Source of the DNA: a virus
Lineage: Duplodnaviria > Caudoviricetes
Virus record (IMG/VR): IMGVR_UViG_3300033074_001936
Location: 1 to 64,000 of that record
Reading direction: 5' to 3' (one strand)
Length of the DNA stretch: 64,000 bases
In this document: positions 4,057 to 43,585 of the stretch, in pieces
Numbering within the stretch: the first letter of the stretch is position 1
Layout of the letters: each line of letters starts with the position of its first letter
The notes under the pieces: generated by a model
The model's database searches: none
The model's input: only the letters and a program-made list of their open reading frames with translations
Told to the model about the DNA's origin: nothing
Program-made: the position numbers and the translations under genes

Positions 4057-4584
4057 GTGATCGAGCGGGCGGTGAGCAAGAGGGTGGAGCGGCGGGGAGG
4101 AGCCCGGCCGGGCGCGGGCAAGCCCAAGGGATCGGTGTCGGAGGCGACCCGCATCGCTCGCATACGCGCCGAGCAGACCGGCGAGCTGCCGCACGAGCTC
4201 CTCCTCAAGTGGGCGCGCACGGGCCGCATGGCATTTCCGCGCCGCACCGGGAAGACGACAATCGTGGATTTGAGCCCGCAGGATCGCATCACATGCGCCC
4301 GCGCCTGCGCCGCCTACTATCGCGCCCCATATCAGGCGCGCCCCATGCCGGGCGAGCAGCCGCCGGTGGTCCGCGTCGAGCTCGATCAGGAGATGGTGGC
4401 GGCGCTGGCGGCCAAGTCCCCGGACAAGCTCGAGGTGCTGCGCGATGTCCTCAAGTCCCTGCAGTCGGGGGGAGGGGTTCTCGAGGCCGCGGCTTCATCG
4501 CGCAGCAACAGTGCGCTGGCCGGTGCCCCGAACCGCTACGGGCAGATGCTGAGCGAGACGTCGGATGTGGAGGGGCGGGCATGA
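4057..4584 (+). CDS. terS: Terminase small subunit (putative)
   Basis: RGGARPGAGKPKGS N-terminal motif; AGGAGG at 4045-4050 before GTG; upstream of terL. Confidence 0.7.
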   Translation: MIERAVSKRVERRGGARPGAGKPKGSVSEATRIARIRAEQTGELPHELLLKWARTGRMAFPRRTGKTTIVDLSPQDRITCARACAAYYRAPYQARPMPGEQPPVVRVELDQEMVAALAAKSPDKLEVLRDVLKSLQSGGGVLEAAASSRSNSALAGAPNRYGQMLSETSDVEGRA

Positions 4585-4886
4585 GCGATCCAGTCGTAGA
4601 AAAGTATCGGGACAAGACCGACCCCGAGCACGTCAGGGCGATGCAGGCGATCGGCGTGGCCCGGATGATGCTCGCGCAGCACCGCGACAGGTACCATGCG
4701 CTGGAGCGAGCCGAGCGCGAGATGCACTCGTTCGGGGGCATGATCGACCCGACGCTCTACCGGGACATGCTGTCCAGCAAGAACTTCGCGCAGCAGGTGC
4801 GCATGGTGCGGGCCGTGCTGGCCTTCCTCGAGGCGGTCGACGCGATCGCCGAGGAGGAGTGCCTTGCGGAGGGCGCGCCTACTTGA
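4581..4886 (+). CDS. Hypothetical protein
   Basis: ATGA overlap with terS; overlaps terL start. Confidence 0.6.
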   Translation: MSDPVVEKYRDKTDPEHVRAMQAIGVARMMLAQHRDRYHALERAEREMHSFGGMIDPTLYRDMLSSKNFAQQVRMVRAVLAFLEAVDAIAEEECLAEGAPT

Positions 4887-6724
4887 CCCACATCGACGCC
4901 TCGCAGGCGCTGTACGCGGTCGAGCAGGCGATCGCGGGCCGGGTCTTGCGCCGCGCGCTGCCCCCGCCGCGGGTCCTCGACCGCGCCGAGTGGCCCCCGA
5001 ACTACGCGCGGGTGCAGGCCTGGCGTCAGCAGCAGCTCACCAAGTTCGAGCAGGACCCGGGGCTGCTCGCGGAGGCCCGGGACTGGTACGCGGGCCGTGA
5101 CCTCACCACCGCCAAGTGCGCCGACCCCAAGAAGTGGGCCGAGCGCTGCTGCGCCTTCATCTGCCACTGGGTCGATACCTACGACCCGCGCAATGCCGGC
5201 AAGCCCGGCATGGCCGCGCGTATGCCCCTCATCTTGTTCCGGCGCCAGGCCGAGCTCGTCGAGTTCATCTTCGCGTGCGTGCTCGGGGACGCGCCGGGCC
5301 TCGCGGAGAAGGCCCGCGACATGGGTGCGACCTGGGTCGGGATCGGGGTCACCCTATGGATGTGGCTGTTCCAGCCCGGCACGGCGATCGGCTGGGGTGC
5401 CAACAAGCTCGAGCTCGTGGACGTCCTCGGGGACCCGGACACGATCATGGAGAGGCTCCGCCAGACCATCCGCCTCCTGCCGGACTGCTTCCGCCCGGCG
5501 GTTGAGGACGGGGTGCACCTCAAGCACAAAGTCTGCCGCAACCCGGACAATGAGTCGGTCGTGTCGGGCCAGGGCGGCAAGGAGATCGGCCGCGGGGGTC
5601 GCCGCCGCCTATACTTCGTGGACGAGGCCGCCCACGTCGACAACCCGGTGGCGATCGAAGCCTCGCTTTCCATGAACACGCGCTGCCGCATTGACATCTC
5701 CTCGGTGTCTTCCCCGGGAACGGTGTATCACCGCAAGCGACTCGCCGGCAAAGAGTGGCAGCCGGGGGCGGCAGTAGTCACTGACTGCGTTAATGTGTTC
5801 GTCATGGACTGGTCCGATCACCCGGAGAAGACCAAGGAGTGGTACTCGGAGCGCCGCCGGTTCTACGAGTCGCAGGGCACCCCCGAGGTCGTGGCGCGCG
5901 AGATCGACCGGGACTACATGGGCGCCGCGCAGGGCATCATAATCAAGTATGAGTGGGTCGAGGCCGCGGTGGACGCGCACCGGGTTCTGGGGCTCGACGA
6001 CTCGGGCGGCTGGTGGGGCGGGCTGGACGTCGCGGACGAGGGGGTCGATACCAACGCTCTAGTGCGGGGGCGCGGTATCGTGGTCCGCCACGCCGAGGAG
6101 TGGGGCGACCGCGACCCGGGGGCGACCGCGCGTCGCGCCTTCCGCCTGTGCCGGGACACCGCGCCCATCATCTTGCAGTATGATTGCATCGGGCTCGGCA
6201 CCAACATCAAGTCCGAGTTCAATCGCCTCACCCAAGACGACGCGCTCGATGTGAGTTGGATCAGCCTGACCCCGTGGAATGCCGGGGCCGCAGTCCTCGA
6301 CCCGGGCATGCCGGTGATTGCCGGGGACCATCAGTCGCCGACCAATAAGAACTATTTCGAGAACTTCAAAGCGCAGGCCTGGTGGAATGTCTCGCGAATG
6401 TTCTATCGCACTTGGCAGGCTGTGCAAGCGGCCCGCGGGGAAGCCGATGCCGCGGAGGCGGGCGAGCTTGACCCGGGCAAGCTCATATCCCTGGACTCGA
6501 AGACGATCCCCGCGGCGACGCTGACCAAGCTCATGCGCGAGCTGTCGCAGGCCACCATGGGGCAATCGAGCCGCCTCAAGCTCTTGGTGAATAAGGCCCC
6601 GGACGGCGCGAAGTCGCCGAACCTCGCCGACGCGTTGGTCATGGGCCGCTTCCCCGCCCGGCGCGGGCCGGCGGGCATGCTGCCCGCGGGAGGGGCGCTC
6701 GGTCCTAAAATGTTCATCGGATGA
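4883..6724 (+). CDS. terL: Terminase large subunit
   Basis: Walker A EKARDMGATW, GRGGR, Walker B YFVDEAAH, nuclease motifs GLDVADEGVD and SPNLADAL; TTG start at 4883 inferred. Confidence 0.92.
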   Translation: MTHIDASQALYAVEQAIAGRVLRRALPPPRVLDRAEWPPNYARVQAWRQQQLTKFEQDPGLLAEARDWYAGRDLTTAKCADPKKWAERCCAFICHWVDTYDPRNAGKPGMAARMPLILFRRQAELVEFIFACVLGDAPGLAEKARDMGATWVGIGVTLWMWLFQPGTAIGWGANKLELVDVLGDPDTIMERLRQTIRLLPDCFRPAVEDGVHLKHKVCRNPDNESVVSGQGGKEIGRGGRRRLYFVDEAAHVDNPVAIEASLSMNTRCRIDISSVSSPGTVYHRKRLAGKEWQPGAAVVTDCVNVFVMDWSDHPEKTKEWYSERRRFYESQGTPEVVAREIDRDYMGAAQGIIIKYEWVEAAVDAHRVLGLDDSGGWWGGLDVADEGVDTNALVRGRGIVVRHAEEWGDRDPGATARRAFRLCRDTAPIILQYDCIGLGTNIKSEFNRLTQDDALDVSWISLTPWNAGAAVLDPGMPVIAGDHQSPTNKNYFENFKAQAWWNVSRMFYRTWQAVQAARGEADAAEAGELDPGKLISLDSKTIPAATLTKLMRELSQATMGQSSRLKLLVNKAPDGAKSPNLADALVMGRFPARRGPAGMLPAGGALGPKMFIG

Positions 6725-6795
6725 GGATGGCAGGCCATGTCGCGAAAGCCGACCATCGCGCTGACTTGTGATTGAATTTTCAGGTGGGCTAACCA

Positions 6796-6978
6796 ATGAT
6801 CTCCGATTTGATTGTTAATCCAAACCTTCAGTTGGTTTTGATCTGGGCGCCGCCGGCTGTGCTATTCTTGCTCGGGCTATATTACTTTTTGAGGTCGGGA
6901 CCGATTTCCGGCAGCCCGCAGGCGATTGAGTCCAACGCAATGGGTAAGCCGTCATCGAATGCATGCTTATCCGGTTAA
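6796..6978 (+). CDS. Small membrane protein
   Basis: One hydrophobic segment; low GC. Confidence 0.4.
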   Translation: MISDLIVNPNLQLVLIWAPPAVLFLLGLYYFLRSGPISGSPQAIESNAMGKPSSNACLSG

Positions 6979-7004
6979 CACACACAAACGCTGAGGCATA
7001 CTAG

Positions 7005-7394
7005 ATGTTGATCCCGTTTGTTGATCGAGATGGTGCCACGCACTTCACCTGTGAGGATTGCGGGCGCTCAGTCCTCGCAGCCTACGAGACTAAGACCTGC
7101 GTTTGTCTGTCTTGCCAGTTTGTCCGCGACCACTCTCTGTCAGAAAAACCATTACAACCTTCGGACAGAGCTGGTTTTGGTTGGATCAATTCTGCCTTAG
7201 CCGCCGGCAGCACGCCCTACCCCTGCGATGTCATTAGGATGGAGGGCGAGAACGAGGTTCTTGAACTGTACGGGCCCTGGTTCCCCGAAGAGGCTTGTCC
7301 CGGCCACGTCGCCAGCAAGAGCGATCCAAAGGTTTGCGGTCGATGCGGCATACATATCGACAGCCTTCGACCCCCTGAAGAGGATGAGCCATGA
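7005..7394 (+). CDS. Cys-rich hypothetical protein (possible Zn-binding)
   Basis: CEDC, CLSC, CPGH, CGRC motifs. Confidence 0.55.
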   Translation: MLIPFVDRDGATHFTCEDCGRSVLAAYETKTCVCLSCQFVRDHSLSEKPLQPSDRAGFGWINSALAAGSTPYPCDVIRMEGENEVLELYGPWFPEEACPGHVASKSDPKVCGRCGIHIDSLRPPEEDEP

Positions 7395-7579
7395 AAAATC
7401 CGCTGCCTTACCCCTTGCGCGCCACTCGTATCTCTCTGGAGCTAAACCCCTTTGGTTTCTGGCTTCTGCCAAGCGCGAGCTTTCGACGCGACCTAACCGA
7501 AGTCGCCAAAGCCGACGGCGAAACTATCTGGTGGGTTCGATGGGCATGGTTCCAACTCAGTTTTGGTCGCTGGCGATGA
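7391..7579 (+). CDS. Hypothetical protein
   Basis: ATGA overlap; aromatic-rich 62 aa. Confidence 0.5.
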   Translation: MKNPLPYPLRATRISLELNPFGFWLLPSASFRRDLTEVAKADGETIWWVRWAWFQLSFGRWR

Positions 7580-7757
7580 CCACAATATCTAGGGCTGTGT
7601 GTCTAAACCGGATAAGCATGATCGAATGGTGGTGGAAACCCTTCCATCACGTCACGCAATCAAAGCGGTGGAATCACGGCCCATACAGTCAGTGGCGGCC
7701 CATCGTGCGGCCCGGCGCCCGTTGACGTACCTCCGGGATAGAAAGGATAACTTGCAC

Positions 7758-10442
7758 ATGCTCGCCCCCATGAATAAAGCCGCCCCCACATTCATGCAGC
7801 GCTTGGTGGGGCTCGTTACTTCGACTCCGCGCGCCAAGCCGTTCTCGGAGATGGGCGTGTCCGGGACGCCCATATACGGGGGGTACGTACAAACGCGTGA
7901 GAAGTCATCGGGGTGGATGGGCGCGCAGCGCTACATCACTATCTCCGACATGGCGGTCAATGCATCTATTGTCGCTGCGGGGGTGCATTACTTCCTCAAC
8001 TTGATCGCGCGCCCGTCGTGGACGGCTCAGCCCGCCGACGAATCCGCCAAGGCCAAGGAGCTCGCGGAGTTTGTCGACGCAGTCCTGCATGACATGCGGC
8101 GCCCGTGGCCGCGGGTGGTGCGCCGGGCAGGCACGTATCGGTTCTTCGGCTTCGGCGTTCAGGAGTGGACCGCCAAGCGCCGCCCGGACGGCAAGATCGG
8201 ATTGGCGTCGGTCGAGCCGCGCCCGCAGCACACAATCGAGCGATGGGCGCTGGACCCTTCCGGGAAAGTTGAGGGCGTGTTTCAACGCGATCCGTCGACG
8301 GGGCAGGAGCTCGGCATTCCGCGCGGCAAGATCATGTACTTGGTCGAAGATGCGATCTCGGACTCCCCGGAGGGAGTCGGCATCTTCCGACACCTCGCCG
8401 AGCCGTGGGAGCGCCTCAAAGTTTACATGGAGCTCGAGGCGCGCGCATTCGAGCGCGACTTGCGGGGCATCCCGGTCGGCCGCGTGCCATACACTCTCCT
8501 CAATGCGGCAGTCAAGGCCGGCGAGATCGACGCGGCCAAGGCCGCCTCTATGAGCCGCATGCTCGAGGACTTTGTGCAGCTGCAAGTGCGCCAATCGAAC
8601 ACGGCGATCACGCTGGACTCGGTTCCTTATTACTCGCAGGCGGCGGACGGCTCCAAAGTTGCCGGCATGCCTCAGTGGGGGCTCGAGCTCTTGCAGGGCG
8701 CGGCGCAGGGGGTGGAGGCCATCGCCGCCGCAATCACGCGCACGCAGATGGAGATGGCGCGCATCTTGACCTGTGAGCACCTCCTCATGGGGGCGGACGG
8801 CTCGGGCAACAGGGCGCTCTCGGAGGACAAGTCCCGCAACCTGTACTTGGTGGCGAATGCCGTGCTGGCGGACATCGCCGAGGCCGCCACCCACGACCTG
8901 GTCGAGCCGATCTGGCTCCTCAACAGCTTCCCGGATGAGCTCAAGCCGCGGCTCGAGGCGGAGGATGTCGCATTCCAAGATGCCGACACGGTCGCGGCGA
9001 CGCTGGCCAAGATGGCGCAGGCGGGGGCGGTGCTGGCGCCCGACGATCCGGTCATCGAGGATGTGCGCGCTCTCATGGGCGTCTCCCCGCCCGCGCCCAT
9101 CCCGCCCGAGCTCGTGGGCATGAAGGGGCCGGAAGATAATGAAGACGGGGGAGAGGTGAAAGATGAACCGTCAGCTGATGCCGATGATGCTGAGATCGAA
9201 GAAGGTGGGCTGGAGAAGGCATTTGACCCGAACCAACCGCGGCATCCTCCAGGCTCACCCGAGGGGGGTCAGTGGGTTAGTTCTCGCGGGAGTGTAGAAG
9301 TATTTCACGGCACCACTGATAATGTGATCGAAAGTATCTTGGCGGGAGGTATACGTGCTCAGCCTGGGGTGGATAATTTTGCTTTTGTTGCGCGCGCGGG
9401 TGGGGAATCTGCGGTATTTGTGACGAACTCCCAAAAGAACGCCCTCGCGTACGCGCGAGCGGCCCAGAATGGTTTTGCCGAGCGGTATTGGGATGCGCAT
9501 TTTGAAGAGGCCGAGGCAATACAGGAAGCACTGCGTCGGAAGTATGGTTCGGTCAAGTCGCAGGAGTTTGGCGGCCCCGTTCCCGCAGCTGAAGCTTATC
9601 CTTTTTTGAATAAAGTTCCAGGCTTGCCTTCAATCGCCGTTGTTCACGCGCGTATCCCGAAGGCGGAGTGGGCGAAGTTCAAGCACGATAGAGAGAGTTT
9701 GGCTCCATCTAAGTATGGCAGGAGAATCAAACCGGAGTGGATTAAATCTATCAAAGTGCGAAAGCCCGGATCAAAATTGACTAGTATATTTCAGAAAGAG
9801 CTTGATAATGGGGAAATCTATTTTGTGATGTTATTTGTAGAGGAAGGGGGGTTGAGCAAGCGCGCGGCCCAGGCCGGTCGGGAGGCCGTCGCGCAGCTCC
9901 GCGGGCTGGGGAAGGCCGCGGGGCGCAAGACTCTCTACGTCAAGCGCCGCCTCCTCAACCCGGAGGACGTGCGGGCGTGGGCGGCCGCGCAGGGCATCGC
10001 GTCGACCCTGCGCCCGGACGACATGCATGTGACTGTCGCATTCTCGCGCGAGCCGGTCGACTGGTCGAAGATTGAGCTCGAGACGGACGCGGTCGTTGTC
10101 TTGGATGACGGGGTGGAAAAGCGCGCGGTCCATCAGTTCCCGCCCCGGTCCACCCCCAACGGCGCGCTCGTCCTCAAGTTCGAGTCGCCCGAGCTCCGCG
10201 CGCGCTGGCAGTACTTCCGCGACGCGGGCGCGTCGTGGGACTTCCCGGAGTACCAGCCGCACGTGACCATCACCTACTCGGTCCCGCAGGCCGATGTTGG
10301 CGCGATCGAGCCGTACCGCGGGCCGCTGATCTTCGGCCCCGAGGAGGCGTCCGAGGTCAACGACGACTGGGCGGGCGAGCTCGTCGAGGAACCGACCAGT
10401 ATGATCTCGGTTGAAGACCGCTGGGTGCCGCAGGGAGGGTAG
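7758..10442 (+). CDS. Portal protein fused to an ADP-ribosyltransferase-like domain and a C-terminal Acb1-like 2H phosphoesterase
   Basis: Follows terL; portal-like N-terminal ~450 aa (FERDLRGIPV, GNRALSEDKS); FDPNQPRHPPGSPEGGQW linker; VFHGTT/AVFVT..ALAYA; two HxT motifs (MHVTVAFS, PHVTITY); AAGGA before ATG 7758. Confidence 0.85.
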   Translation: MLAPMNKAAPTFMQRLVGLVTSTPRAKPFSEMGVSGTPIYGGYVQTREKSSGWMGAQRYITISDMAVNASIVAAGVHYFLNLIARPSWTAQPADESAKAKELAEFVDAVLHDMRRPWPRVVRRAGTYRFFGFGVQEWTAKRRPDGKIGLASVEPRPQHTIERWALDPSGKVEGVFQRDPSTGQELGIPRGKIMYLVEDAISDSPEGVGIFRHLAEPWERLKVYMELEARAFERDLRGIPVGRVPYTLLNAAVKAGEIDAAKAASMSRMLEDFVQLQVRQSNTAITLDSVPYYSQAADGSKVAGMPQWGLELLQGAAQGVEAIAAAITRTQMEMARILTCEHLLMGADGSGNRALSEDKSRNLYLVANAVLADIAEAATHDLVEPIWLLNSFPDELKPRLEAEDVAFQDADTVAATLAKMAQAGAVLAPDDPVIEDVRALMGVSPPAPIPPELVGMKGPEDNEDGGEVKDEPSADADDAEIEEGGLEKAFDPNQPRHPPGSPEGGQWVSSRGSVEVFHGTTDNVIESILAGGIRAQPGVDNFAFVARAGGESAVFVTNSQKNALAYARAAQNGFAERYWDAHFEEAEAIQEALRRKYGSVKSQEFGGPVPAAEAYPFLNKVPGLPSIAVVHARIPKAEWAKFKHDRESLAPSKYGRRIKPEWIKSIKVRKPGSKLTSIFQKELDNGEIYFVMLFVEEGGLSKRAAQAGREAVAQLRGLGKAAGRKTLYVKRRLLNPEDVRAWAAAQGIASTLRPDDMHVTVAFSREPVDWSKIELETDAVVVLDDGVEKRAVHQFPPRSTPNGALVLKFESPELRARWQYFRDAGASWDFPEYQPHVTITYSVPQADVGAIEPYRGPLIFGPEEASEVNDDWAGELVEEPTSMISVEDRWVPQGG

Positions 10443-10448
10443 GATCGC

Positions 10449-11111
10449 ATGCTCGCGCCGGACCATCAAGTCGCGCTCCGCGCGCAGCAGCACCGGGAGG
10501 AAGTCGCCTGCGGGGTCGCTGCGGCTATGCCGATGCTGGTGCGGGTGGCGGGCAATTTGACGCGAGGTCGCGGACCGGACCCGCACGACCTCGCGCAGGG
10601 CGCCGCGCTCAAGGCGATCGAGCACGCGGACTTGTTCCAGCCCGGCACAAACCTGGACGCGTGGCTCGTGACAATCCTGAAAAACTCCTTTATGTCGGGG
10701 CTGCGGCGGCAGCGCTTCGAGGTGGTCGGGGAGGCGGGCGACGCCGCAGACTTGTACGCTAACTCAAGCCGCATCGGCGCGGGGGGTGAGCGCGACGCGA
10801 TCGCGCGCCTCGACCTCGCGCGCCTCGCGTGCTGCCTGTCGAGGCTGCCCCCCGATCAGCAGGAGGTCGTCGAGCTCGTAGTGGTGCAGGGCCGCTCCTA
10901 CGAGGAGGCCGCCCTGGTCCTCGCGGTCCCGGACGGGACCATCAAGAGCCAGTTGTCTCGCGCGCGGGACCAGCTGCTCGCGATGATGGGAGAGGAGTAC
11001 CAGCCCGCCGGCAGCCGGCGCCACCGGCGCCACCGGCGCGAGGAAGAGGACGCGTGGGCGCGCCTGCGCGCGGCTGGGGCGGTCGACGCCCGTGAGTGGG
11101 AGGGCGAGTAG
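10449..11111 (+). CDS. ECF-type sigma-70 factor
   Basis: DLAQ, FQPGTNLDAWLVTILKN (region 2); LPPDQQEV, SYEEAA..PDGTIKSQLSRAR (region 4). Confidence 0.9.
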   Translation: MLAPDHQVALRAQQHREEVACGVAAAMPMLVRVAGNLTRGRGPDPHDLAQGAALKAIEHADLFQPGTNLDAWLVTILKNSFMSGLRRQRFEVVGEAGDAADLYANSSRIGAGGERDAIARLDLARLACCLSRLPPDQQEVVELVVVQGRSYEEAALVLAVPDGTIKSQLSRARDQLLAMMGEEYQPAGSRRHRRHRREEEDAWARLRAAGAVDAREWEGE

Positions 11112-11113
11112 GG

Positions 11114-12070
11114 ATGCTGACGCGCCCGGAGGCCGACACCGGCAACTTTACCTACGTACAGCTGCTCGCGCGCGTCAAGCTCGCGCTCGCCGAGGCCGTA
11201 GAGGTCGCGGTCCCCGCGGCGGAGATACGCCGGTTTCCGGGGCAGCCGCGGGAGTACTTCGACCTCGCGGCGCTCGCGCGCTTGTCGGAGTCGATCGACG
11301 CCTCCGGGCAGACGACCCCGGGAATTATTCGCCGGGCGGAGGGCGCGCCGGGGTACGAGCTCGTGGACGGCGAGCGCCGCTGGCGGGCGGTGCAGATGAT
11401 CCCCGCGGACCGGCGCCCGCTCTACCGCGCGCGCCTGATCGCGTCCGACGATGCGGTCGTTCAGTACCTGATCTCTGGGATCGCCAACTTTAACCGCGAG
11501 GGGCACGCCCCCCTCGAGGTCTCGGACGCCATCGCGCGCATGATGGGCCTCGACCTGCCGGCGCGGGAGATCGCCGCCCTCCTGGGCTTGAGCGAGCAGT
11601 GGGTCTACCAGATGCACGGGCTCTGCCGCCTCGACGGGCGCGTCAGGGCCATGCTCGACCCCGCGCTCCCCAAGAAGGAGCGGCTCCCGACGTCGGCCGC
11701 GGTGGAGATCGCTAAGTGCGCGCACAGCCTGCAGTACAGTTTGGCGCAGCGGGTCTTGCGTCGCGATGTGACCCTGAGCGGCCTGCGGGCCGAGGTCGTT
11801 GAGCGATCGCGCGCGGTCGGCGCGCCGATCCGAACCCGGCGCGCCGACCCTAACAGGCGCTGGCGCTCGGTCGTTAACTCGGTGGGGCATATAGAGCGCG
11901 TCGCCCGCGACATGGAGGCGAGCCTGGGCGCCCCGGGGGTGCGGGGGCTCGCCGTCCGGCGTCCGGCGCACGAGCGCGCCCTCGCGGAGAAGAACCTGCG
12001 CGGAGCCCGCGCGGTCCTCGAGCGCTGCGCGGCGGTCCTCGCAGCGTGGGTGGCAGAAGGGGAGGCCTGA
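11114..12070 (+). CDS. ParB/Spo0J-like protein
   Basis: QPREYFD, GQTTP, YELVDGERRWRA, ANFNRE, then an HTH. Confidence 0.88.
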   Translation: MLTRPEADTGNFTYVQLLARVKLALAEAVEVAVPAAEIRRFPGQPREYFDLAALARLSESIDASGQTTPGIIRRAEGAPGYELVDGERRWRAVQMIPADRRPLYRARLIASDDAVVQYLISGIANFNREGHAPLEVSDAIARMMGLDLPAREIAALLGLSEQWVYQMHGLCRLDGRVRAMLDPALPKKERLPTSAAVEIAKCAHSLQYSLAQRVLRRDVTLSGLRAEVVERSRAVGAPIRTRRADPNRRWRSVVNSVGHIERVARDMEASLGAPGVRGLAVRRPAHERALAEKNLRGARAVLERCAAVLAAWVAEGEA

Positions 12071-12073
12071 GAG

Positions 12074-12517
12074 ATGTTCGTCGTATTCGACCTGGACGGG
12101 ACGCTGTCGTTGAACGCGCACCGCCAGCACTTCCTCGAGCAGGTGCCCAAGCGCTGGGACGAGTGGCACGCGGCCTGCGCCGAAGATCCCCCATGCCTGC
12201 CGGTCATCGAGACGCTCCGCCTCTACTACGCCGCGCGACCGGCGCACCGGGTCGAGATCTGGTCCGGCCGCTCGGACGTTGTGCGCCGGGAGACCGAGCG
12301 TTGGCTCCTCCAGCAGGGCATAAACCCACTCCTCCTCAAGCGCATGCGCCCGGCAAAAGATCATCGGCCCGACGTCGACCTCAAGCGCAAGTGGCTGTGC
12401 GAGGCCCGGGCAAATGGGGGCGCTCCCGACCTCGTCTACGACGATCGGGATCGGGTCGTGGCTATGTGGCGTGAAGAAGGCGTGCGCTGCTTTCAGGTCG
12501 CCCCGGGGCCGTTTTGA
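12074..12517 (+). CDS. HAD phosphatase (polynucleotide kinase/phosphatase C-terminal type)
   Basis: FDLDGTL, SGR, D.RPD..LK, YDDR..VV.MWR...CFQVA. Confidence 0.85.
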   Translation: MFVVFDLDGTLSLNAHRQHFLEQVPKRWDEWHAACAEDPPCLPVIETLRLYYAARPAHRVEIWSGRSDVVRRETERWLLQQGINPLLLKRMRPAKDHRPDVDLKRKWLCEARANGGAPDLVYDDRDRVVAMWREEGVRCFQVAPGPF

Positions 12518-19944: not shown

Positions 19945-20888
19945 GTTCTTATCGCAGGCCGGGCGGCCGCCGCGGCTGCGTCCCGACCCCGCCGGTTGGG
20001 CGCTGGATCGTCGCCCTCCCCGCGTGGGGTGATCGCTGCGTCGATGTCGCCATGCGCCATGTAATCCCGTCTCTATGCGCCGCGCTGCGGGAGCTCGGTC
20101 GCCCCGCGGTAGTCGTTGCATGGACCGACCAAGTCGACCGCCTGAGCCAGTTATTCCGATGGGAGGAGGGGGCGATCTCGGTCGTGTTCTCGGGCGTGCC
20201 GGGCGCGGACCGCGCCTTCGGCTCGCTCTCCGACTGCCATCGTCAAGCCCTCGAATCCGCGCAGCCGGGGGATCGCGTCCTCCTCCTGACGGCCGACATG
20301 GTTTTGTCGCGGGAGGTCCTCGCGACCTGCGAGCGGTACATTGCCGCGGGCATGCAGCTCGTTTGCTGCGTCGCCCCCCGCGCCCTCGAGGATGCGCGGC
20401 CCCCCATCGCCGCATCAGGCCGCGAGCTCATGCGGTGGGCGTGGGACAACCGCCATCCCATGACTCGCGACTGCACCTGGCCCGAGGGAAAGTCGTATGA
20501 TGTCTGGCGCATGTACTTCGAGCGAGATGGGGAGGTCGCAGCCCGCGTATTCCTTCCGCACCCATTGGTCGCGGTCCCGTCGGGGCGGCGCCTCCCCTTC
20601 AGCCCCACGATCGACGTCAATCTTGCGGCCAACTTCTCCCCGGCCGTGACCGTGCTCTTGACCTCGCCCGATGAGGGGGCCGCAGTTGAGTTGTCGCCCG
20701 TCGATAAGGAGTATGTTAAGTCAGAGCAAACCATGCGCGCCCGCCTCGAGAGCGGTACTGAGTCTTGCCCGCAGATCGCCCGGTGCGGCAATGCGCGCCA
20801 CCGCATGTTCTTCGGCAAGCGGGTTGTGCTGTGCGGTTCGGGCGGCGCCTGCGATGATGATGAGATGGTGAAGAGGATATTGGGATGA
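19941..20888 (+). CDS. GT-A-like protein, paralog 2
   Basis: LPAWG, WTD, LLTAD, WAWDNRHPMT, PHP, PTID. Confidence 0.6.
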   Translation: MSSYRRPGGRRGCVPTPPVGRWIVALPAWGDRCVDVAMRHVIPSLCAALRELGRPAVVVAWTDQVDRLSQLFRWEEGAISVVFSGVPGADRAFGSLSDCHRQALESAQPGDRVLLLTADMVLSREVLATCERYIAAGMQLVCCVAPRALEDARPPIAASGRELMRWAWDNRHPMTRDCTWPEGKSYDVWRMYFERDGEVAARVFLPHPLVAVPSGRRLPFSPTIDVNLAANFSPAVTVLLTSPDEGAAVELSPVDKEYVKSEQTMRARLESGTESCPQIARCGNARHRMFFGKRVVLCGSGGACDDDEMVKRILG

Positions 20889-21184
20889 CTACTCGCCGTT
20901 CATTTCTCTCACTTCTCGGGCTTTCCCCATTTTTTGCACCCGCGGTTATGGAGGAAGTTCGCGCCGCGGGTGAGGCGCCCGCCATTCCTCCGGCTGACAT
21001 TCCCATTCCGCTCGGCCTATCTCCGGCAGCTGCCTTCAATGGGGTCTTGGTTTGCGATTATTTTATGATCTGCACTAAGGATTGCTCGTTGGCCTTGCGG
21101 CCGGGTCATGACTTTGTAATGATGGAGAAAGGTTCTATTGTTGTTGATGGACCGCGCTTTGTAGCTGTGGATGATGCGCAATGA
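20885..21184 (+). CDS. Hypothetical protein with Tat-like N-terminus
   Basis: MTTRRSFLSLLG followed by a hydrophobic stretch; lower GC. Confidence 0.55.
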   Translation: MTTRRSFLSLLGLSPFFAPAVMEEVRAAGEAPAIPPADIPIPLGLSPAAAFNGVLVCDYFMICTKDCSLALRPGHDFVMMEKGSIVVDGPRFVAVDDAQ

Positions 21185-22059
21185 CGCGTTGGCTCATATC
21201 GGTCCCGGTCTGGGGGCAGCACTATGTTGATGAGTTCTGCGCGGCGGCATTGCCCCCGCTCACGTGCGCCATCGAAGCCCTCGCCGAGCTGCCGGATATT
21301 GAGGCGCGCCTCATCATTCACACGGATCGGGCCGAGCAAGTCGGAGCCGCGACATCGGTGCGAGTCGAGTGCCGCCCTGTGCCTGCCGGGGCGCGGGGCT
21401 TCGACTGCATGTCGCAGGCACATCGCGAAGTGTTGAGGCTCGGCCTGCGCGGGGATGTAGTCGTGTTGCTGACGGCCGGCGCGGTGATCTCGGCGCAGGG
21501 ACTTCGCTACTGCGCAAAAGTGCTCGAGGACCCCCGGCTCCGGCTCGTGTTATGCGCCGTTCCGCGCGCGCTACCGCGCGGCCCCCTCCCTGACGCGGCT
21601 GACGGAGAATCCCTCATGCGCTGGGCGTGGGACAACCGCCACCCCATGACTGAGGAGTGCATCTGGCCGCATGGGCGCTCGCGGGACTTATCCCGGACAT
21701 TTTACTTGGGGGCGGTCGGCTCCGTCGCGACGCGGCAGGCACTCCCGCACCCGCTCGCCGTGCGCATCGACGGTCGGCCCCTGCGCTTCACTCCTACAGT
21801 CGACGCGAACTTGATCCATTGCTTTGATCCATCAGAGATGCACATGACCCCCGACTGCCGCGAGCTCGCGCTTATCAAGCTATCCCCGGAGGACAAGGCG
21901 TTTGACCTAGTCGATGCATCTATGCGCGCGCGGGCAGCCCGCGGGGAGCTCGTCATCGCGGACAAACATCAGCGTTGGTGCCTGGGGCATCGCGTACATC
22001 TATGCGGGTCGGGGGAGATTCAAGATGATGATCATTTTATGGTTGCGCTGCGAGGATGA
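21181..22059 (+). CDS. GT-A-like protein, paralog 3
   Basis: SVPVWG, IHTD, LLTAG, WAWDNRHPMT, PHP, PTVD. Confidence 0.6.
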   Translation: MTRWLISVPVWGQHYVDEFCAAALPPLTCAIEALAELPDIEARLIIHTDRAEQVGAATSVRVECRPVPAGARGFDCMSQAHREVLRLGLRGDVVVLLTAGAVISAQGLRYCAKVLEDPRLRLVLCAVPRALPRGPLPDAADGESLMRWAWDNRHPMTEECIWPHGRSRDLSRTFYLGAVGSVATRQALPHPLAVRIDGRPLRFTPTVDANLIHCFDPSEMHMTPDCRELALIKLSPEDKAFDLVDASMRARAARGELVIADKHQRWCLGHRVHLCGSGEIQDDDHFMVALRG

Positions 22060-23487: not shown

Positions 23488-23999
23488 AGCTATCCGACGC
23501 AGTCGCTGAGTTTCTTGCGCAGCATGTGCAAGTCGCATTTGTGGTCAATGGCGGGGCATGTCTTCATCTCATCCACTCGATTGCGGAGGCGCAGGGCATC
23601 GATTACATCTGCCCTCATCATGAGCAGGCCGCGGGGTTTGCCGCTGACGCGTATGCCCGCCTCACGGGTTTTGGCTGTGCTATCGCGACATCCGGTCCCG
23701 GCGCCACCAATTTGATCACGGCAATCGCTGCCTCCTACTACGATTCTATCCCGGTCTTATACATTACGGGGCAGGTGACGACCGGGCGCATGACCGGCGG
23801 CTCGGGGGTGCGGCAGATGGGCTTTCAGGAGACTCCCATCGTGGATATGGTCCGGCCAGTCACGAAGTTCGCTGAAACCGTCATGCAACCCGGCAGCATC
23901 ATCGAGATATTGCGCTCAGCGGTCACTATTGCGCGCATGGCGCGGCCTGGCCCGGTGTTGATCGACATTCCTGACGACTTGCAGCGCGCGGAGATTTGA
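23484..23999 (+). CDS. ThDP-dependent enzyme (acetolactate synthase/YerE-like), N-terminal PYR domain
   Basis: HHEQAAGFAADAYAR, TSGPGATN, DSIPVLYITGQ, GFQETP, RPGPVLIDIPDDLQ. Confidence 0.9.
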   Translation: MKLSDAVAEFLAQHVQVAFVVNGGACLHLIHSIAEAQGIDYICPHHEQAAGFAADAYARLTGFGCAIATSGPGATNLITAIAASYYDSIPVLYITGQVTTGRMTGGSGVRQMGFQETPIVDMVRPVTKFAETVMQPGSIIEILRSAVTIARMARPGPVLIDIPDDLQRAEI

Positions 24000-24000
24000 G

Positions 24001-24297
24001 ATGAGCAGTGACTTGGTTAAGAAGCCCCCATCAGCCATCGCTCAGGACTTCATCAATGATCTGGCTCTGGTTGTGAATAAGTACCACGCCGAGCTCAACT
24101 CATTTGAAGTCCTTGCTGTGTTGGCGAATTTTGTGGGCAAGCTTATCGCGGTCGAGCCAAGTTCGGCCACCCCCGCGCAACTCATGAAGCTCATGCTCAC
24201 TAACATGGACCAAGGCAACTTGGAAGTTGTGAAGGGTCTCGTTTCCAATGAGCTTGCCGAGCGGCTGTTCAAAGTTCCGCCAGCGGGGAGCGCATAA
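24001..24297 (+). CDS. Hypothetical protein between the two halves of the ThDP enzyme
   Basis: 98-aa ORF exactly filling the gap. Confidence 0.6.
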   Translation: MSSDLVKKPPSAIAQDFINDLALVVNKYHAELNSFEVLAVLANFVGKLIAVEPSSATPAQLMKLMLTNMDQGNLEVVKGLVSNELAERLFKVPPAGSA

Positions 24298-24300
24298 GTA

Positions 24301-36560: not shown

Positions 36561-37125
36561 ACCGCGTCGGGTCATCATCGTCGGCCGCGCGCGGGGGGCG
36601 CTCGCGGAGTATGCGGCGGCGCGCGCAATGGCGCACTTCGATGAGATCATCGTGGTCGGCAAGATGGGAGAAGTATTCCCGGATGAGATCGATTATTGGG
36701 CCTCATTTCATAGCAATTTATTCGACCGCTGGGCCGCCCGCCGGGCGGCCAACAACTTGGCCCCGGCCGGACATTATTGGGGCGGCATCTACAACGGCAA
36801 GCGCATCGGTGCCGGGCAGGTGAAGTGCGAGCCAATCACATGGGTGTCGACCAGCGGGGGTTCATCGGGCTTCCTGGCACTTGAGGGTGCGCTGAGCATA
36901 TTACAAGCCGAGCGCATTGTGCTCGCCGGCATTCCCATGGATGCGGAGGCATCTCATGAGCCGGAGGCGAGCGAGGCGGGAGAAGATGGGCCGTGGCGTG
37001 AGGCGCATTTGTATTGGGCAACGTGGGAGGCGCGCATGGAGCAGCTGCGCGGGCGTGTGCGCAGCATGAGCGGTCGCACGCGCGCGGCGCTCGGCGCCCC
37101 CACATCCGATTGGCTCCGCGAATGA
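36547..37125 (+). CDS. Putative Maf/DUF115-like (sialyltransferase-type fold) protein
   Basis: VIIVG, YWASFH, GGSSGFLA, RIVLAGIPMD, VRSMSGRT pattern; family call by eye. Confidence 0.5.
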   Translation: MMMSEPRRVIIVGRARGALAEYAAARAMAHFDEIIVVGKMGEVFPDEIDYWASFHSNLFDRWAARRAANNLAPAGHYWGGIYNGKRIGAGQVKCEPITWVSTSGGSSGFLALEGALSILQAERIVLAGIPMDAEASHEPEASEAGEDGPWREAHLYWATWEARMEQLRGRVRSMSGRTRAALGAPTSDWLRE

Positions 37126-38114
37126 GCGCGGCTGACCTCCGGCGCATTGAGCAACTCCTCGCGCGCGCGGAGGCGCGGGTGCGGCGCGCGATCCGACGCT
37201 TCCTTGATGATGCCCGTTCCCCGGAGATCATGCGCCAAGTGCGGCGCATGCTCGAGCGCGGAAGCATCGAGGAAGTGCTGCGCATAGTCGATTCTTACTC
37301 GGCGCGGGTCGGGGAGGCGATCCCGGACATCTTCATATCGGCAGGTGCCGGCGAGATGGAGGCGCTGGCGGAGCAGCTGCGGCGTCAGGGGGTGCGCTTG
37401 GGCTTGTCATTCGATCCCTCGCATCCGCGCGCCGCCGAGCTCATGCGGCGCAACCGCCTCGAGTTCATACGTGAATTTACTAGAGCGCAGCGATTGACAG
37501 TCCGGGATGCGCTCGCCGAAGCCCTCCAATCGGGGCTCGGTCCCATTCAAGCGGCGCGGGAGTTCCGTGATAGCATTGGGCTCACGCAACATCAGCGACG
37601 TTCGGTCGCCAACTATCGGCGCTTGCTCGAGGCGGGAGATGTGGCTGCGCTCGAGCGCGATTTGCGCGACCGGCGCTTTGATTCCTCTGTGCGCCGCGCG
37701 CTTCGTGATGGAGAGCCGCTCGGGGCGGAGCGCATAAGGCGTATGGTCGCCCGCTACCGGGAGCGCTTCTTGCAGTATCGGGCGGAGGTGATCGCGCGCA
37801 CAGAGTCCCTGCGCGTCCTACATCAGGCACGAGAAGAAGCACTCAGCCAAATCGTCGAGGACATCGAGCTGCCGCCCGGAGCCGTGCGCCGCGTCTGGGC
37901 ATCGACTCGCGACAAGCGCGTGCGGGATACCCATCGCGCCATGGACGGCCAAGTCCGCGCCATGAATGAGCCATTCGACAGCCCGTCCGGCGCGCGCCTG
38001 CCGACCCCGGGAGACGGCTCGCTCGGTGCCCCGCCCGGGGAGCTCATCAACTGCCGCTGCGTTGTACTCATACAAGTATCTACTCGCGATGTTCGTCTGC
38101 TTAAAGAACTTTAA
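37122..38114 (+). CDS. Head morphogenesis protein (SPP1 gp7/Mu gpF-like)
   Basis: RAEVIARTE, W.STRD.RVRDTH..MDGQ, PGD, INCRC. Confidence 0.9.
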   Translation: MSAADLRRIEQLLARAEARVRRAIRRFLDDARSPEIMRQVRRMLERGSIEEVLRIVDSYSARVGEAIPDIFISAGAGEMEALAEQLRRQGVRLGLSFDPSHPRAAELMRRNRLEFIREFTRAQRLTVRDALAEALQSGLGPIQAAREFRDSIGLTQHQRRSVANYRRLLEAGDVAALERDLRDRRFDSSVRRALRDGEPLGAERIRRMVARYRERFLQYRAEVIARTESLRVLHQAREEALSQIVEDIELPPGAVRRVWASTRDKRVRDTHRAMDGQVRAMNEPFDSPSGARLPTPGDGSLGAPPGELINCRCVVLIQVSTRDVRLLKEL

Positions 38115-38278
38115 TAAACCACTTAATTTGCATACCAGCCTCCAGGCTACTTGAATTGCCAAGTCATGCGGGCTGCATGGCGAGGAGGCCGGGGAGTTTT
38201 TCTTCGCGCCTCAATGGCGGTAGCTTGAGAAACCTCCCCTCGCGCACCCGCCCTCTCGCCTCATCCCGCACGTCGGAT

Positions 38279-38401
38279 GGTGGCGGCTCCTGCCCTCAGA
38301 GGCGGGGCACTTCCCGTCCCCCCAGGCCCCCGCCGTGAGGGACAAGATATCGCTCCGGGAACATTCCCTCGAGTGCCTCAGGCGCGATGGGGGCCGCCAC
38401 C
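38279..38401 (+). ncRNA. Candidate structured RNA leader (multibranch) upstream of the protease gene
   Basis: 12-bp closing stem 38279-38290/38390-38401 enclosing three 5-bp stems; ends 11 nt before the RBS. Confidence 0.35.
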
Positions 38402-38429
38402 GGACCTCGGAAGAAGGATTTCTCTGCAA

Positions 38430-39050
38430 GTGCCTTGGAAGACGAACACCGAGCTGCCTGAGTCGATCAAGTCGGCGCTCCCGGCCGATGCTCAGTCGCG
38501 CTTTCGCTCGGTCGCCAACGAGCGCATGCGCGCGGGTGCGAGCGAGACCTCGGCCATCGCGCAGGCTTGGCACGTGGTCAAGCAGGGCTGGGAGAAGGCC
38601 GCAAGTGGAGGCAAGTGGGTGCGCAAGCAAGATCATCATGGCGACGAGCCGGAGTTCCGCAAGGCGGAAGTCGTCAAAGTCAGCGACGAGCTCGGCTTGG
38701 TCTTCGGGCTCGCAATTGTCTGCAAAGTGGACGGCGCGCCCTATTTTGACTTGCAGGGCGACCACATCCCCGAGGATGCGATGCTCAAGGCGGTGACTGA
38801 CTTCATGATCCACAGCCGGGTCGCGAAGGAGATGCACAGCGGCAAGCAGATCGGGGATGTTGTATTTGCGTTCCCGCTCACGCAGGAGATCGCGGACTCG
38901 CTGGAGATCACGACCAAGTACACCGGCTGCCTCGTCGCCATGAAGCCCTCCCCCGAGGTGCTCGCGAAGTTCAAATCGGGCGAGTACTCCGGCTTTTCGA
39001 TCGGCGGCAAGCGCCTGCATGATGAAGAAGCCGAGAAGGGTGCCTACTAG
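38430..39050 (+). CDS. ChaB domain fused to an XkdF-like prohead serine protease
   Basis: MPW..N.ELP.SIK..LP..AQ..F / AW..VK..W.K..GKW (ChaB); LVFG, DLQGD.I, KEMH, GEYSGFSIGG; GAAGGA before GTG. Confidence 0.82.
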   Translation: MPWKTNTELPESIKSALPADAQSRFRSVANERMRAGASETSAIAQAWHVVKQGWEKAASGGKWVRKQDHHGDEPEFRKAEVVKVSDELGLVFGLAIVCKVDGAPYFDLQGDHIPEDAMLKAVTDFMIHSRVAKEMHSGKQIGDVVFAFPLTQEIADSLEITTKYTGCLVAMKPSPEVLAKFKSGEYSGFSIGGKRLHDEEAEKGAY

Positions 39051-39221: not shown

Positions 39222-39226
39222 GAGAG

Positions 39227-40513: not shown

Positions 40514-40540
40514 CCCCCGGCGAGGAAAGGAACAGCACTC

Positions 40541-40918: not shown

Positions 40919-40949
40919 CCCCTGATTAACTCAAACAGGAGACCCCGCG

Positions 40950-41936: not shown

Positions 41937-41960
41937 GCGCGGCCTGCGGGAGGATGAACC

Positions 41961-42347: not shown

Positions 42348-42351
42348 GCGC

Positions 42352-43569: not shown

Positions 43570-43585
43570 AGAAGGAGAAGCCAAG

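What the first reader, a model, noticed from the sequence alone, without database searches (positions are those of the whole stretch)
9198..9860. The ART-like cargo is a low-GC cassette bracketed by a duplicated EEGGL-x-K motif
Seen: 9198-9218 (gaagaaggtgggctggagaag, EEGGLEK) and 9840-9860 (gaggaaggggggttgagcaag, EEGGLSK) match at 15 of 21 nt. The DNA between them is much richer in A/T-ending codons than the flanking domains. Inference: an in-frame, recently acquired module sits in an exchangeable slot bounded by recombination and/or cleavage sites, like a polymorphic-effector system built on the portal.
Basis: partly seen in the sequence, partly recalled or inferred. Interest (0 to 1): 0.72.

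Follow-up and report, generated by a model that had tools for sequence, protein, structure and literature searches.

The report
Swappable enzyme cargo on phage portal
A phage portal protein carries two enzyme modules on its tail end, and one of them (an ADP-ribosyltransferase-like domain) is a recently acquired, AT-richer insert in a slot that related phages leave empty or fill with other enzymes; this is a clear example of an already described kind of phage "polyvalent" cargo protein.

Summary
Observation confirmed. EEGGLEK (9198-9218) and EEGGLSK (9840-9860) match at 15/21 nt. GC3 falls from 0.85 to 0.49 over codons 512-749 (nt 9132-9845).

The gene (7758-10442) encodes a Mu-type portal, an acidic linker, an ART-fold module and an Acb1-type 2H phosphoesterase, in an uncultured 95-kb phage.

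The "exchangeable slot" reading holds:
- 18 homologous portal-Acb1 proteins have only a 50-88 aa linker in this slot.
- 6 carry a 204-294 aa module there.
- The sister portal carries a Zeta toxin instead.
- The next relative has Acb1 alone.

The role given to EEGGLxK does not hold:
- The heptad pair is weak on its own; 17% of shuffles give one.
- It is absent from homologs.
- The left copy lies 63-75 nt inside the foreign tract.

The recurring delimiter is an extended junction, [VLI]-x-K-(A)-[FY]-[DNS]-P-x-Q-P-R...GG[QR]W. It precedes modules of many types, up to four times per protein. It also follows portals of other Pfam families. EEGGL[ES]K is best read as the module tail plus junction lead.

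Cleavage at the junction and delivery into the host are inferred, not shown.

This is a new member of a known kind, the polyvalent proteins of Iyer et al. 2017. Other first-reader notes of this scan cover the same gene.

The parts
7758..10442 (+). Portal-ART-Acb1 fusion gene. The ORF is open from GTG 7599; the likely start is ATG 7758.
   Evidence: ORF list and translation. The database copy P0002 (894 aa) and the homolog N-termini align from about aa 54.
8007..9131 (+). Mu-type portal core. Pfam Portal_Mu covers aa 137-482; conservation runs to about aa 511.
   Evidence: PF06074 at 76.5 bits and phrog_113 at E 6e-50. Nucleotide identity of 85-88% to the sister portal P0010 collapses at about nt 9110-9135.
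9132..9845 (+). Low-GC3 foreign tract: acidic linker, junction and ART-fold module.
   Evidence: Change-point fit gives GC3 0.49 against 0.85, a gain of 58 log-likelihood units. The tract is absent from the closest portal-Acb1 homologs.
9198..9218 (+). EEGGLEK, copy 1. It is the lead of the complete junction motif (GLEK is an h-x-K lead).
   Evidence: An h-x-K lead is found in 52% of 322 junctions against 2.7% background.
9219..9275 (+). Junction motif AFDPNQPRHPPGSPEGGQW, the only complete copy in the 94.9-kb phage record.
   Evidence: Motif survey and logo. Six-frame scan of the whole record. The same motif follows other portal families.
9282..9833 (+). ART-fold module, aa 562-745. Candidate triad: H570 (9306-9308), F607 (9417-9419), D697 (9687-9689). 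A lineage-specific helical insert lies at about aa 620-678.
   Evidence: AlphaFold model with pLDDT 75. All 50 best structural matches are ARTs, led by KptA at Z 10.7 and TreX at Z 10.2. Profile against PDB: Tpt1 1.3e-4, cholix toxin 7e-3. Family conservation. Family HMM envelope.
9840..9860 (+). EEGGLSK, copy 2. It is the tail after the last strand of the ART module, where a next junction would begin. The GC3 recovery point lies inside it.
   Evidence: Analogous tails in homologs are followed directly by a junction: VDGGVEK|YSPNQPR in P0122 and VDGVEK|AFDPSQPR in P0133.
9861..9929 (+). High-GC3 resident linker RAAQAGREAVAQLRGLGKAAGRK, with a third G-L-x-K lead (GLGKA) before Acb1.
   Evidence: Third-base map. 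Compare P0003..DLGKAYNPDQPR|TLYV. List of h-x-K sites.
9927..10373 (+). Acb1-type 2H phosphoesterase, aa 777-925. Both H-x-T motifs are present: H810-V-T812 (10026-10034) and H888-V-T890 (10260-10268).
   Evidence: PF23474 at 130.8 bits against a cut-off of 27. H810, T812, H888 and T890 are invariant in A1. Nucleotide identity to the Acb1 of P0003 is mostly 67-85%.
38277..39050 (+). ChaB plus XkdF-type head serine protease. It is a candidate enzyme for releasing the portal cargo; that link is inferred.
   Evidence: PF06150 at 34.4 bits and PF14550 (Peptidase_S78_2) at 32.2 bits against a cut-off of 24. It sits in the head module next to the MuF, scaffold and major head genes.

Best explanation
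The gene encodes a phage portal protein whose C-terminus is a modular ("polyvalent") cargo arm. After the Mu-type portal core comes an acidic linker. Then come modules, each introduced by a short junction, [VLI]-x-K-(A)-[FY]-[DNS]-P-x-Q-P-R...GG[QR]W.

In this phage's lineage the resident cargo was an Acb1-type 2H phosphoesterase, predicted to destroy cyclic-oligonucleotide immune signals. An ART-fold module of the H-[F/Y]-D type, with its own linker and junction, was later inserted in frame between the portal core and Acb1. It came from a source of lower GC. The left crossover lies at the end of the portal core (about nt 9123-9135). The right crossover lies in the junction lead that follows the module (about nt 9836-9854).

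The duplicated EEGGL-x-K is not a special site. It is the module-tail / junction-lead sequence (..GG-L-x-K) seen once before the complete junction and once, truncated, after the module.

Inferred, not shown:
- Twelve copies of the arm sit inside the capsid.
- The head protease cuts them at or near the junctions.
- The freed enzymes enter the host with the DNA and act on host targets (ADP-ribosylation) and on CBASS-type signals.
For: Architecture: Portal_Mu plus Acb1 by Pfam and PHROGs.

ART fold of the middle module:
- All 50 best structural matches are ARTs, led by KptA at Z 10.7 and TreX at Z 10.2.
- The family profile hits Tpt1 and cholix toxin.
- The homologs P0122 and P0136 pass Pfam's PARP cut-off.
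- H570 is invariant, F607 is F or Y in all rows, and D697 is kept in 26 of 29.

Foreign origin:
- GC3 change-points at 9132 and 9845.
- Nucleotide identity to the sister portals P0010 and P0003 collapses at the same left point and resumes at Acb1.
- The cassette-free homolog P0003 has a flat GC3 of 0.92.

Variable slot:
- Slot length is bimodal, 18 proteins at 50-88 aa and 6 at 204-294 aa.
- On the portal tree this protein is sister to a Zeta-toxin carrier, and the next relative has Acb1 only, with 100/94 and 100/98 support.
- ART-like modules occur at different positions in 7 of 120 portal homologs.

Junction:
- It recurs up to four times per protein before unrelated domains.
- 19 of 45 ART-like modules are followed by one within 4-22 residues.
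- The h-x-K lead is enriched about 19-fold.
- The junction also follows PF04860 and PF06381 portals.

Feasibility of processing:
- A ChaB-XkdF head protease is encoded.
- The C-terminal 124 residues of the Mu portal gp29 are missing from virions, which the authors attribute to protease I (PMC11915804).
- Portal-2H and portal/MuF-effector fusions have been described as injected polyvalent proteins (PMC5512222).
Against: - No donor sequence was found. The best full-length relatives of the module are only 31-36% identical, and there is no DNA match among cultured phages.
- Low GC3 also marks the variable modules of P0014 (0.68) and P0005 (about 0.52). This could reflect weaker codon selection on cargo rather than recent transfer.
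- The module lacks two residues that the family usually keeps. Y599 is R and R602 is G here. It also carries a 58-aa insert, so it may be inactive or have a changed function.
- The position of D697 in the fold was not verified residue by residue.
- Cleavage, packaging and injection are untested. A portal-tethered enzyme could instead act in the producing cell before assembly.
Confidence: 0.75

Rival explanations
1. One reading: the two EEGGL-x-K copies are themselves the functional borders of the cassette, either the recombination crossover sites or the protease cleavage sites that excise the ART module.
For: One copy abuts the junction and the other coincides with the right GC3 change-point. 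Both contain an h-x-K lead (GLEK, GLSK), a feature enriched before junctions. A head protease is encoded.
Against: An EEGG[LIVM] motif occurs in only one other of 76 portal homologs. Only a handful of the roughly 310 junctions in the proteins fetched up to then show a comparable GG-type lead. The left copy lies 63-75 nt inside the low-GC tract. The two copies differ at synonymous sites, so they are not a recent DNA duplication. A 6/7 heptad pair arises in 17% of shuffles.
Confidence: 0.12
2. The heptad repeat is pure coincidence. The cassette is real, but its two ends share nothing meaningful.
For: The shuffle test gives p of about 0.17. Other short DNA repeats of similar quality are scattered through the region.
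Against: Both copies sit at the same structural position, directly before a junction or where one is expected. Homologous modules end in similar tails: VDGGVEK in P0122, VDGVEK in P0133, CDGGEAK in P0230 and VEDGGGVNK in P0200.
Confidence: 0.25
3. The low GC3 does not mark recent transfer. Cargo modules in this portal family are long-resident but under relaxed or different codon selection, so they drift toward AT.
For: The variable modules of P0014 and P0005 also have lower GC3 than their portal and Acb1 parts.
Against: The cargo of the sister P0010 (unknown domain plus Zeta toxin) keeps GC3 at 0.80-0.97. The closest portals lack the module or carry others. The GC3 edges are sharp to within a few codons and coincide with the loss of nucleotide homology.
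Confidence: 0.12
4. Metagenome assembly chimera: reads from a lower-GC phage were wrongly joined into this contig.
For: The record is an uncultured IMG/VR contig, and the composition changes abruptly.
Against: The insert is in frame. Both flanks are parts of one gene that is contiguous in relatives. The same portal-ART-like-Acb1 order exists independently in P0014 from another sample.
Confidence: 0.03

Closest known systems
Polyvalent proteins of phages and conjugative elements (Iyer, Burroughs, Anand, de Souza, Aravind 2017, PMC5512222)
   Same: Several effector-type domains lie in one polypeptide that is tied to the virion. That paper describes fusions of 2H phosphoesterases and other effectors to portal or MuF domains. 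It names ARTs of an H-Y-D configuration as the commonest protein-modifying domain, and it predicted that the 2H domains degrade nucleotide immune signals. Relatives here show the same mosaicism.
   Different: The ART module here is not recognised by Pfam ART-PolyVal or any other Pfam model. I found neither the junction motif nor a linker discussion in that paper (0 occurrences of 'linker' and 'QPR'). The GC3 evidence for a dated insertion is specific to this locus.
MuF polymorphic toxins of temperate phages (Jamet et al. 2017, PMC5576092)
   Same: A conserved head-associated N-terminal domain is followed by a variable C-terminal toxin or effector domain, including ARTs, in the DNA-packaging module.
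   Different: The carrier here is the portal itself, not MuF; this phage has a separate MuF gene at 37014-38114. No immunity gene follows. Two cargo modules sit in series.
Phage T4 Acb1 (anti-CBASS 2H phosphoesterase; Pfam PF23474)
   Same: The C-terminal domain matches the family model end to end (130.8 bits) and keeps both H-x-T motifs.
   Different: T4 Acb1 is, from my own knowledge, a free-standing protein. Here the domain is fused to a portal behind another module. Activity was not tested.
Phage T4 Alt (ART packaged in the head and injected)
   Same: It is a working model for an ART delivered with the DNA to modify host proteins (cited in PMC5512222).
   Different: Alt belongs to the R-S-E clade and is not fused to the portal. 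The module here is H-[F/Y]-D-like and nearest in structure to KptA/Tpt1 and Rhs TreX.
Phage Mu portal gp29 (gpH) C-terminal processing
   Same: Same portal family (PF06074). The last 124 residues of gp29 are absent from the virion structure, which the authors attribute to protease I (PMC11915804).
   Different: The Mu tail carries no enzyme domains that I know of. The protease here is XkdF-type. A search for the Mu-like protease family found nothing, but its control also stayed silent.

Membership tests
Polyvalent proteins (Iyer et al. 2017) | Two or more distinct effector-type domains in one polypeptide | tested here: met
   ART-fold module plus Acb1/2H behind the portal core.
Polyvalent proteins (Iyer et al. 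2017) | Encoded by a phage or conjugative element and linked to virion or transfer machinery (portal/MuF fusion or late genes) | tested here: met
   Fused to a Portal_Mu domain next to the large terminase, in an IMG/VR phage record.
Polyvalent proteins (Iyer et al. 2017) | Mosaic, rapidly reshuffled domain architectures among relatives | tested here: met
   Extensions after the end of the portal core run from 81 to 998 aa with ART, Zeta, Acb1 and unknown modules. Sister portals carry different cargo.
Polyvalent proteins (Iyer et al. 2017) | Packaged and delivered into the recipient cell with the DNA | not testable with these tools
   Needs virion proteomics and infection assays.
ADP-ribosyltransferase (ART) superfamily | ART fold | tested here: met
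   Model pLDDT 75. VIA-align gives KptA Z 10.7, TreX Z 10.2, pertussis S1 Z 8.8 and scabin Z 8.7, and all 50 listed matches are ARTs. Foldseek hits are the same families but weak, E 0.017 and above.
ADP-ribosyltransferase (ART) superfamily | Strand-1 His (H-G-[ST]) and strand-2 aromatic of the H-Y-[E/D] division | tested here: met
   H570-G-T is invariant in 30/30 rows. Position 607 is F in 21 and Y in 9; it is F here. The HGT block aligns to the Tpt1 HGT.
ADP-ribosyltransferase (ART) superfamily | Catalytic acidic residue on strand 5 | tested here: inconclusive
   D697 is kept in 26/29 rows. E713 of the PEW motif is kept in only 5 of 8 rows read by eye in A2. No residue-level superposition was available. 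The Atlas nearest clusters are Tox-ART-HYD1 at score 0.92, a lead only.
ADP-ribosyltransferase (ART) superfamily | Match to a curated ART sequence model | tested here: not met
   There is no Pfam hit in aa 534-776 at E up to 1 and no PHROG hit. Homologs reach PARP only weakly, or above the cut-off in P0122 and P0136.
ADP-ribosyltransferase (ART) superfamily | NAD+-dependent transfer activity | not testable with these tools
   Needs an enzyme assay. This copy lacks the family-typical Y599 and R602.
Acb1 / 2H phosphoesterase | Full-length match to PF23474 above the curated cut-off | tested here: met
   130.8 bits against 27; profile positions 1-142 of 144.
Acb1 / 2H phosphoesterase | Two H-x-[ST] catalytic motifs | tested here: met
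   MHVTV (H810, T812) and PHVTI (H888, T890) are invariant in A1.
Acb1 / 2H phosphoesterase | Cleavage of cyclic oligonucleotide signals | not testable with these tools
   Needs an enzyme assay.
Classical polymorphic toxin system | Cognate immunity gene directly downstream of the toxin end | tested here: not met
   The next gene (10449-11111) is a sigma-factor homolog, followed by ParB and PNKP. The same neighbours occur in relatives.
Classical polymorphic toxin system | Silent spare cassettes in the same genome for recombination | tested here: not met
   There is no second copy of the cassette DNA and no second junction motif in any frame of the 94.9-kb record. The record is 88% complete.
Tpt1/KptA RNA 2'-phosphotransferase | N-terminal RNA-binding lobe carrying the catalytic Arg-His, in addition to the NAD+ lobe | tested here: not met
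   Structural matches cover only the C-lobe, KptA residues 91-180. The module begins about 10 residues before strand 1, right after the junction.
Mu-type portal (PF06074) | Match above the curated cut-off | tested here: met
   76.5 bits against 23.9, aa 137-482.

The most novel reading that the evidence does not exclude
The extended junction [VLI]-x-K-(A)-[FY]-[DNS]-P-x-Q-P-R-x(2-10)-GG[QR]W could be a universal, so far undescribed "module delimiter" of phage capsid-cargo proteins. It is shared by portals of at least three Pfam families and by many non-portal polyvalent proteins.

It could act in either of two ways:
- as the processing site (by the head protease after h-x-K, or by self-cleavage at the D/N-P bond) that frees each enzyme inside the capsid;
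- as the conserved in-frame splice point that lets modules move between unrelated phages.

The insertion at this locus would then be a caught-in-the-act example, with one crossover inside a junction lead.
Probability: 0.25. Interest if true: 0.6.

Novelty: new member of a known kind. Interest (0 to 1): 0.4.

Why it matters
Portal-borne cargo would reach the host at the first moment of infection, so its content indicates which host defences a phage lineage faces. Here that content is an anti-CBASS-type phosphoesterase plus an NAD+-using transferase.

This locus gives unusually clean evidence that such cargo is exchanged module by module. The composition break is sharp. The loss of homology to sister portals falls at the same place. 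The slot is empty or differently filled in the nearest relatives.

The junction motif that delimits the modules is short, widespread and easy to search for. It could serve as a practical handle for finding and segmenting unknown phage effector domains. If it proves to be a cleavage site, it would also explain how tethered cargo is released.

Tried and rejected
- DNA search of the cassette in 50,697 cultured phage records (blastn, distant mode): no match. The phage's own genome has only the one copy.
- tblastn with the 25-aa junction against cultured phages: no match, probably because the query is short and filtered.
- Literature string search for PNQPR, PSQPR, PDQPR and NQPRD: only irrelevant papers. 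The MuF toxin paper does not use the words linker, motif or recombination.
- Search for the donor: in 1.84 billion representatives no protein matches below E 1e-30. Most hits match only the junction.
- Apparent conservation of the "GG" of EEGGLSK in alignment A3: rejected as an end-of-alignment artefact after reading the rows. It was replaced by explicit module tails.
- The 14-mer repeat 9207-9220 / 9903-9916 (13/14 identical, GLEKA against GLGKA): no better than ten other short repeats in the region. It is used only as a protein-level h-x-K lead.
- Target-site duplication or transposon insertion: rejected. The copies differ at synonymous sites and the left one is inside the foreign tract.
- Tpt1/KptA identity, and an RNA-repair reading with the nearby PNKP: rejected for membership because the N-lobe is absent.
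- Mu-like protease family PF10123: no hit, but the control was silent too, so this is uninformative. Peptidase_S78 (PF04586): no hit. The protease was then found as PF14550.
- P0012 DNA could not be fetched.
Full report
WHAT IS THERE. The window is the first 64 kb of a 94.9-kb uncultured phage record (IMG/VR; CheckV completeness 88%). ORF 7599-10442 (+) encodes 947 aa. The database copy and the homolog alignment start at ATG 7758. Pfam finds Portal_Mu at aa 137-482 (76.5 bits) and Acb1, the anti-CBASS 2H phosphoesterase, at aa 777-925 (130.8 bits against a cut-off of 27). PHROGs agrees, giving portal and "RNA ligase"/2H. Nothing in Pfam or PHROGs covers aa 534-776. The large terminase lies just upstream. 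A sigma-factor homolog, ParB and PNKP lie downstream.

THE OBSERVATION. They differ at three synonymous third positions and in the E/S codon. They are therefore alike as protein, not as recently duplicated DNA. A 6/7 heptad pair appears in 17% of shuffles of this protein, so the repeat is not significant by itself.

The composition signal is strong. A two-change-point fit on third-position GC gives a low tract at codons 512-749 (nt 9132-9845). Support is 9123-9135 on the left and 9836-9854 on the right. GC3 is 0.49 inside against 0.85 outside, a gain of 58 log-likelihood units. The right edge lies inside EEGGLSK. The left edge lies 63-75 nt before EEGGLEK, exactly where the conserved portal core ends.

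THE MIDDLE MODULE IS AN ART. An AlphaFold model built on 30 homologs has mean pLDDT 75. An all-against-all structural search puts only ADP-ribosyltransferase-fold proteins in its 50 listed matches:
- KptA/Tpt1 C-lobe, Z 10.7
- Rhs toxin TreX, Z 10.2
- pertussis S1, Z 8.8
- scabin, Z 8.7
- PARP16, DarT and diphtheria toxin further down

Foldseek finds the same families weakly. A profile of the family hits Tpt1 at E 1.3e-4 and cholix toxin at E 7e-3 among PDB sequences. Two homologous modules, in P0122 and P0136, pass Pfam's PARP cut-off.

Across 30 homologs H570-G-T is invariant. Position 607 is F (21 rows) or Y (9 rows). D697 is kept in 26 of 29. This fits the H-Y-D configuration that Iyer et al. 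report for ARTs of polyvalent proteins, and the Atlas lead to Tox-ART-HYD1.

This copy is atypical in two ways. It has R and G where the family has Y599 and R602, and it carries a helical insert of about 58 aa. It is not a Tpt1, because only the NAD+ lobe is present.

THE SLOT IS VARIABLE. A word-indexed search returned 187 portal homologs of 520-1483 aa. The closest (57-72% identical) are portal, linker and Acb1 with no middle module, and the gap in their alignment spans this segment (A1). Among 24 homologs with a recognisable Acb1 start, the distance from the end of the portal core to Acb1 is bimodal. Eighteen have 50-88 aa and six have 204-294 aa. The six occupied slots hold an ADPrib_exo_Tox domain (P0005), an ART-like module homologous to ours (P0014) or unknown domains. 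Other homologs carry modules after Acb1, or Zeta toxin/AAA_33 instead of it.

On a maximum-likelihood tree of the portal core, this protein is sister to P0010, which carries an unknown domain plus Zeta toxin and no Acb1 (support 100/94). The next relative is P0003, with Acb1 only (100/98). Elsewhere, nearly identical portals (P0012 and P0030, branch lengths 0.026 and 0.055) carry different cargo. The ART-like module type occurs at different positions in 7 of 120 portal homologs.

WHERE THE INSERT BEGINS AND ENDS. Codon-aligned DNA comparison shows 85-88% nucleotide identity to P0010 and P0003 up to about aa 503-510. Identity then collapses. Against P0003 it resumes at about nt 9930, at the start of Acb1, and stays mostly at 67-85% from there. 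The cassette-free P0003 gene has a flat GC3 of 0.92. P0014 shows a milder dip over its module (0.68 against 0.97). P0005 dips at both of its variable modules. The P0010 cargo stays at 0.80-0.97.

Low GC3 is therefore frequent in cargo but not universal. Here it coincides with the homology break. I read this as a fairly recent in-frame insertion into a portal-Acb1 ancestor, taken from a lower-GC source. No donor was found.

WHAT THE HEPTADS ARE. An EEGG[LIVM] motif occurs in only one other of 76 portal homologs. Among the junctions found in the proteins fetched, the consensus is [FY]-[DNS]-P-x-Q-P-R-x-P-x-G-x-P-x-G-G-[QR]-W, usually preceded by K. It occurs up to four times per ORF and stands before unrelated domains, including ART-like, Zeta, topoisomerase IB and unknown ones.

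In 52% of 322 junctions a [VLIMF]-x-K lead ends 0-1 residues before the aromatic, against 2.7% at random positions. In an independent IMG/VR sample the figures are 20% against 3.2%.

Of 45 ART-like modules that reach the end of the family profile, 19 are followed by a junction within 4-22 residues of the last strand, and 6 end the protein. Some tails look very like ours, which is ..IYFVMLFVEEGGLSK:
- ..MYMVLLVDGGVEK|YSPNQPR (P0122)
- ..LYLVVLVDGVEK|AFDPSQPR (P0133)
- ..LYAVVVCDGGEAK (P0230)
- ..FVVILVEDGGGVNK (P0200)

So copy 1 (EEGGLEK|AFDPNQPR) is the lead of a complete junction. Copy 2 is the module tail and lead where the next junction would begin, but the resident high-GC3 linker starts there instead. 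A third lead, RGLGKA, precedes Acb1 and corresponds to ..DLGKAYNPDQPR|TLYV in P0003. The heptad repeat is thus best explained by the periodicity of modules and junctions in the donor type of protein. The right crossover fell in a junction lead.

HOW WIDE THE JUNCTION REACHES. An exact-pattern scan for FDPNQPR in IMG/VR returned 81 stretches of DNA. In the 80 that were analysed, the motif lay in 84 ORFs, 65 of which also had the following G[QRKE][WF]. Among nine long ORFs tested, the junction follows portals of PF04860 (two cases, one with a 2H domain) and PF06381, and it occurs in ART-bearing proteins. The phage studied here has only this one junction in all six frames. I found no description of the motif in the searched literature.

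HOW IT PROBABLY WORKS. Shown here are the domain identities, the modular variation and the foreign composition. The rest is inferred from known systems.

From general knowledge of portal structure, portal C-termini face the capsid interior. The last 124 residues of the Mu portal gp29 are missing from the virion structure, which the authors attribute to protease I (PMC11915804). This phage encodes a ChaB-XkdF-type head serine protease in its head module. Iyer et al. proposed that portal- and MuF-fused effectors are packaged and injected, and that the 2H domains counter nucleotide-based defence signalling.

I therefore propose that the arm is cut at or near the junctions during head maturation. 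The ART and Acb1 enzymes would then enter the host with the DNA. An alternative is that unassembled portal acts late in the producing cell.

VERDICT. It is wrong about the heptad being the operative boundary. The system is a new member of the polyvalent-protein kind. The junction motif and the cleanly dated insertion are the parts worth following up. Other first-reader notes of this scan cover the same gene (e1-5938433) and propose cutting after h-x-K (e1-5938435). I tested only the enrichment of that lead, not cleavage.

Noticed in passing
window 4565-10442 versus 37014-47039: The large terminase and the portal lie about 27 kb away from the rest of the head and tail module. That module holds MuF-like head morphogenesis 37014-38114, ChaB-XkdF protease 38277-39050, cement/scaffold-like 40541-40918, major head 40950-41936, neck, major tail and tape measure.
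   Followed up: partly
window 10449-12517; also L003 and the P0012 contig: A sigma-factor homolog, a ParB-like protein and a PNKP (HAD_PNKP) gene accompany the portal. In the window and on the P0012 contig all three follow the portal gene. In L003 (P0014) the sigma factor and ParB precede it and PNKP follows. This is unusual company for a packaging gene.
   Followed up: no
L050:3789-6434, L045:199-2343, L078:854-3775: The same FDPNQPR..GGxW junction follows portals of other Pfam families: PF04860 in L050 and L078, PF06381 in L045. L078 also carries a 2H phosphoesterase before its junction.
   Followed up: partly
P0211 (263 aa) and P0006 (954 aa): In P0211 an ART-like module runs straight into the second half of an Acb1 domain (..DIGK|RAVERF..). 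In P0006 the Acb1 match comes in two stretches. This suggests that modules can also sit inside Acb1, or that these are partial gene calls.
   Followed up: no
window 9456-9632 (aa 620-678): This ART-like copy has a helical insert of about 58 aa that most homologs lack. It also lacks the family-typical Y599 and R602 (R and G here). It may be inactive or have a changed function.
   Followed up: partly
window 6701-7650: A second low-GC stretch (0.525-0.537) lies between the terminase and the portal. Its small ORFs (7005-7394, 7228-7725) have no PHROG match. Other low-GC islands lie at 20851-21200, 23951-24300 and 53651-54800.
   Followed up: no
P0163 (1435 aa), P0122 (1588 aa), P0199 (554 aa): The pairing of an ART-like module with Acb1 recurs in non-portal polyvalent proteins. 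P0163 has ART-like, Acb1 and later MuF. P0122 has Acb1 followed by several ART-like modules and an ADPrib_exo_Tox domain. The two activities may be selected together.
   Followed up: no
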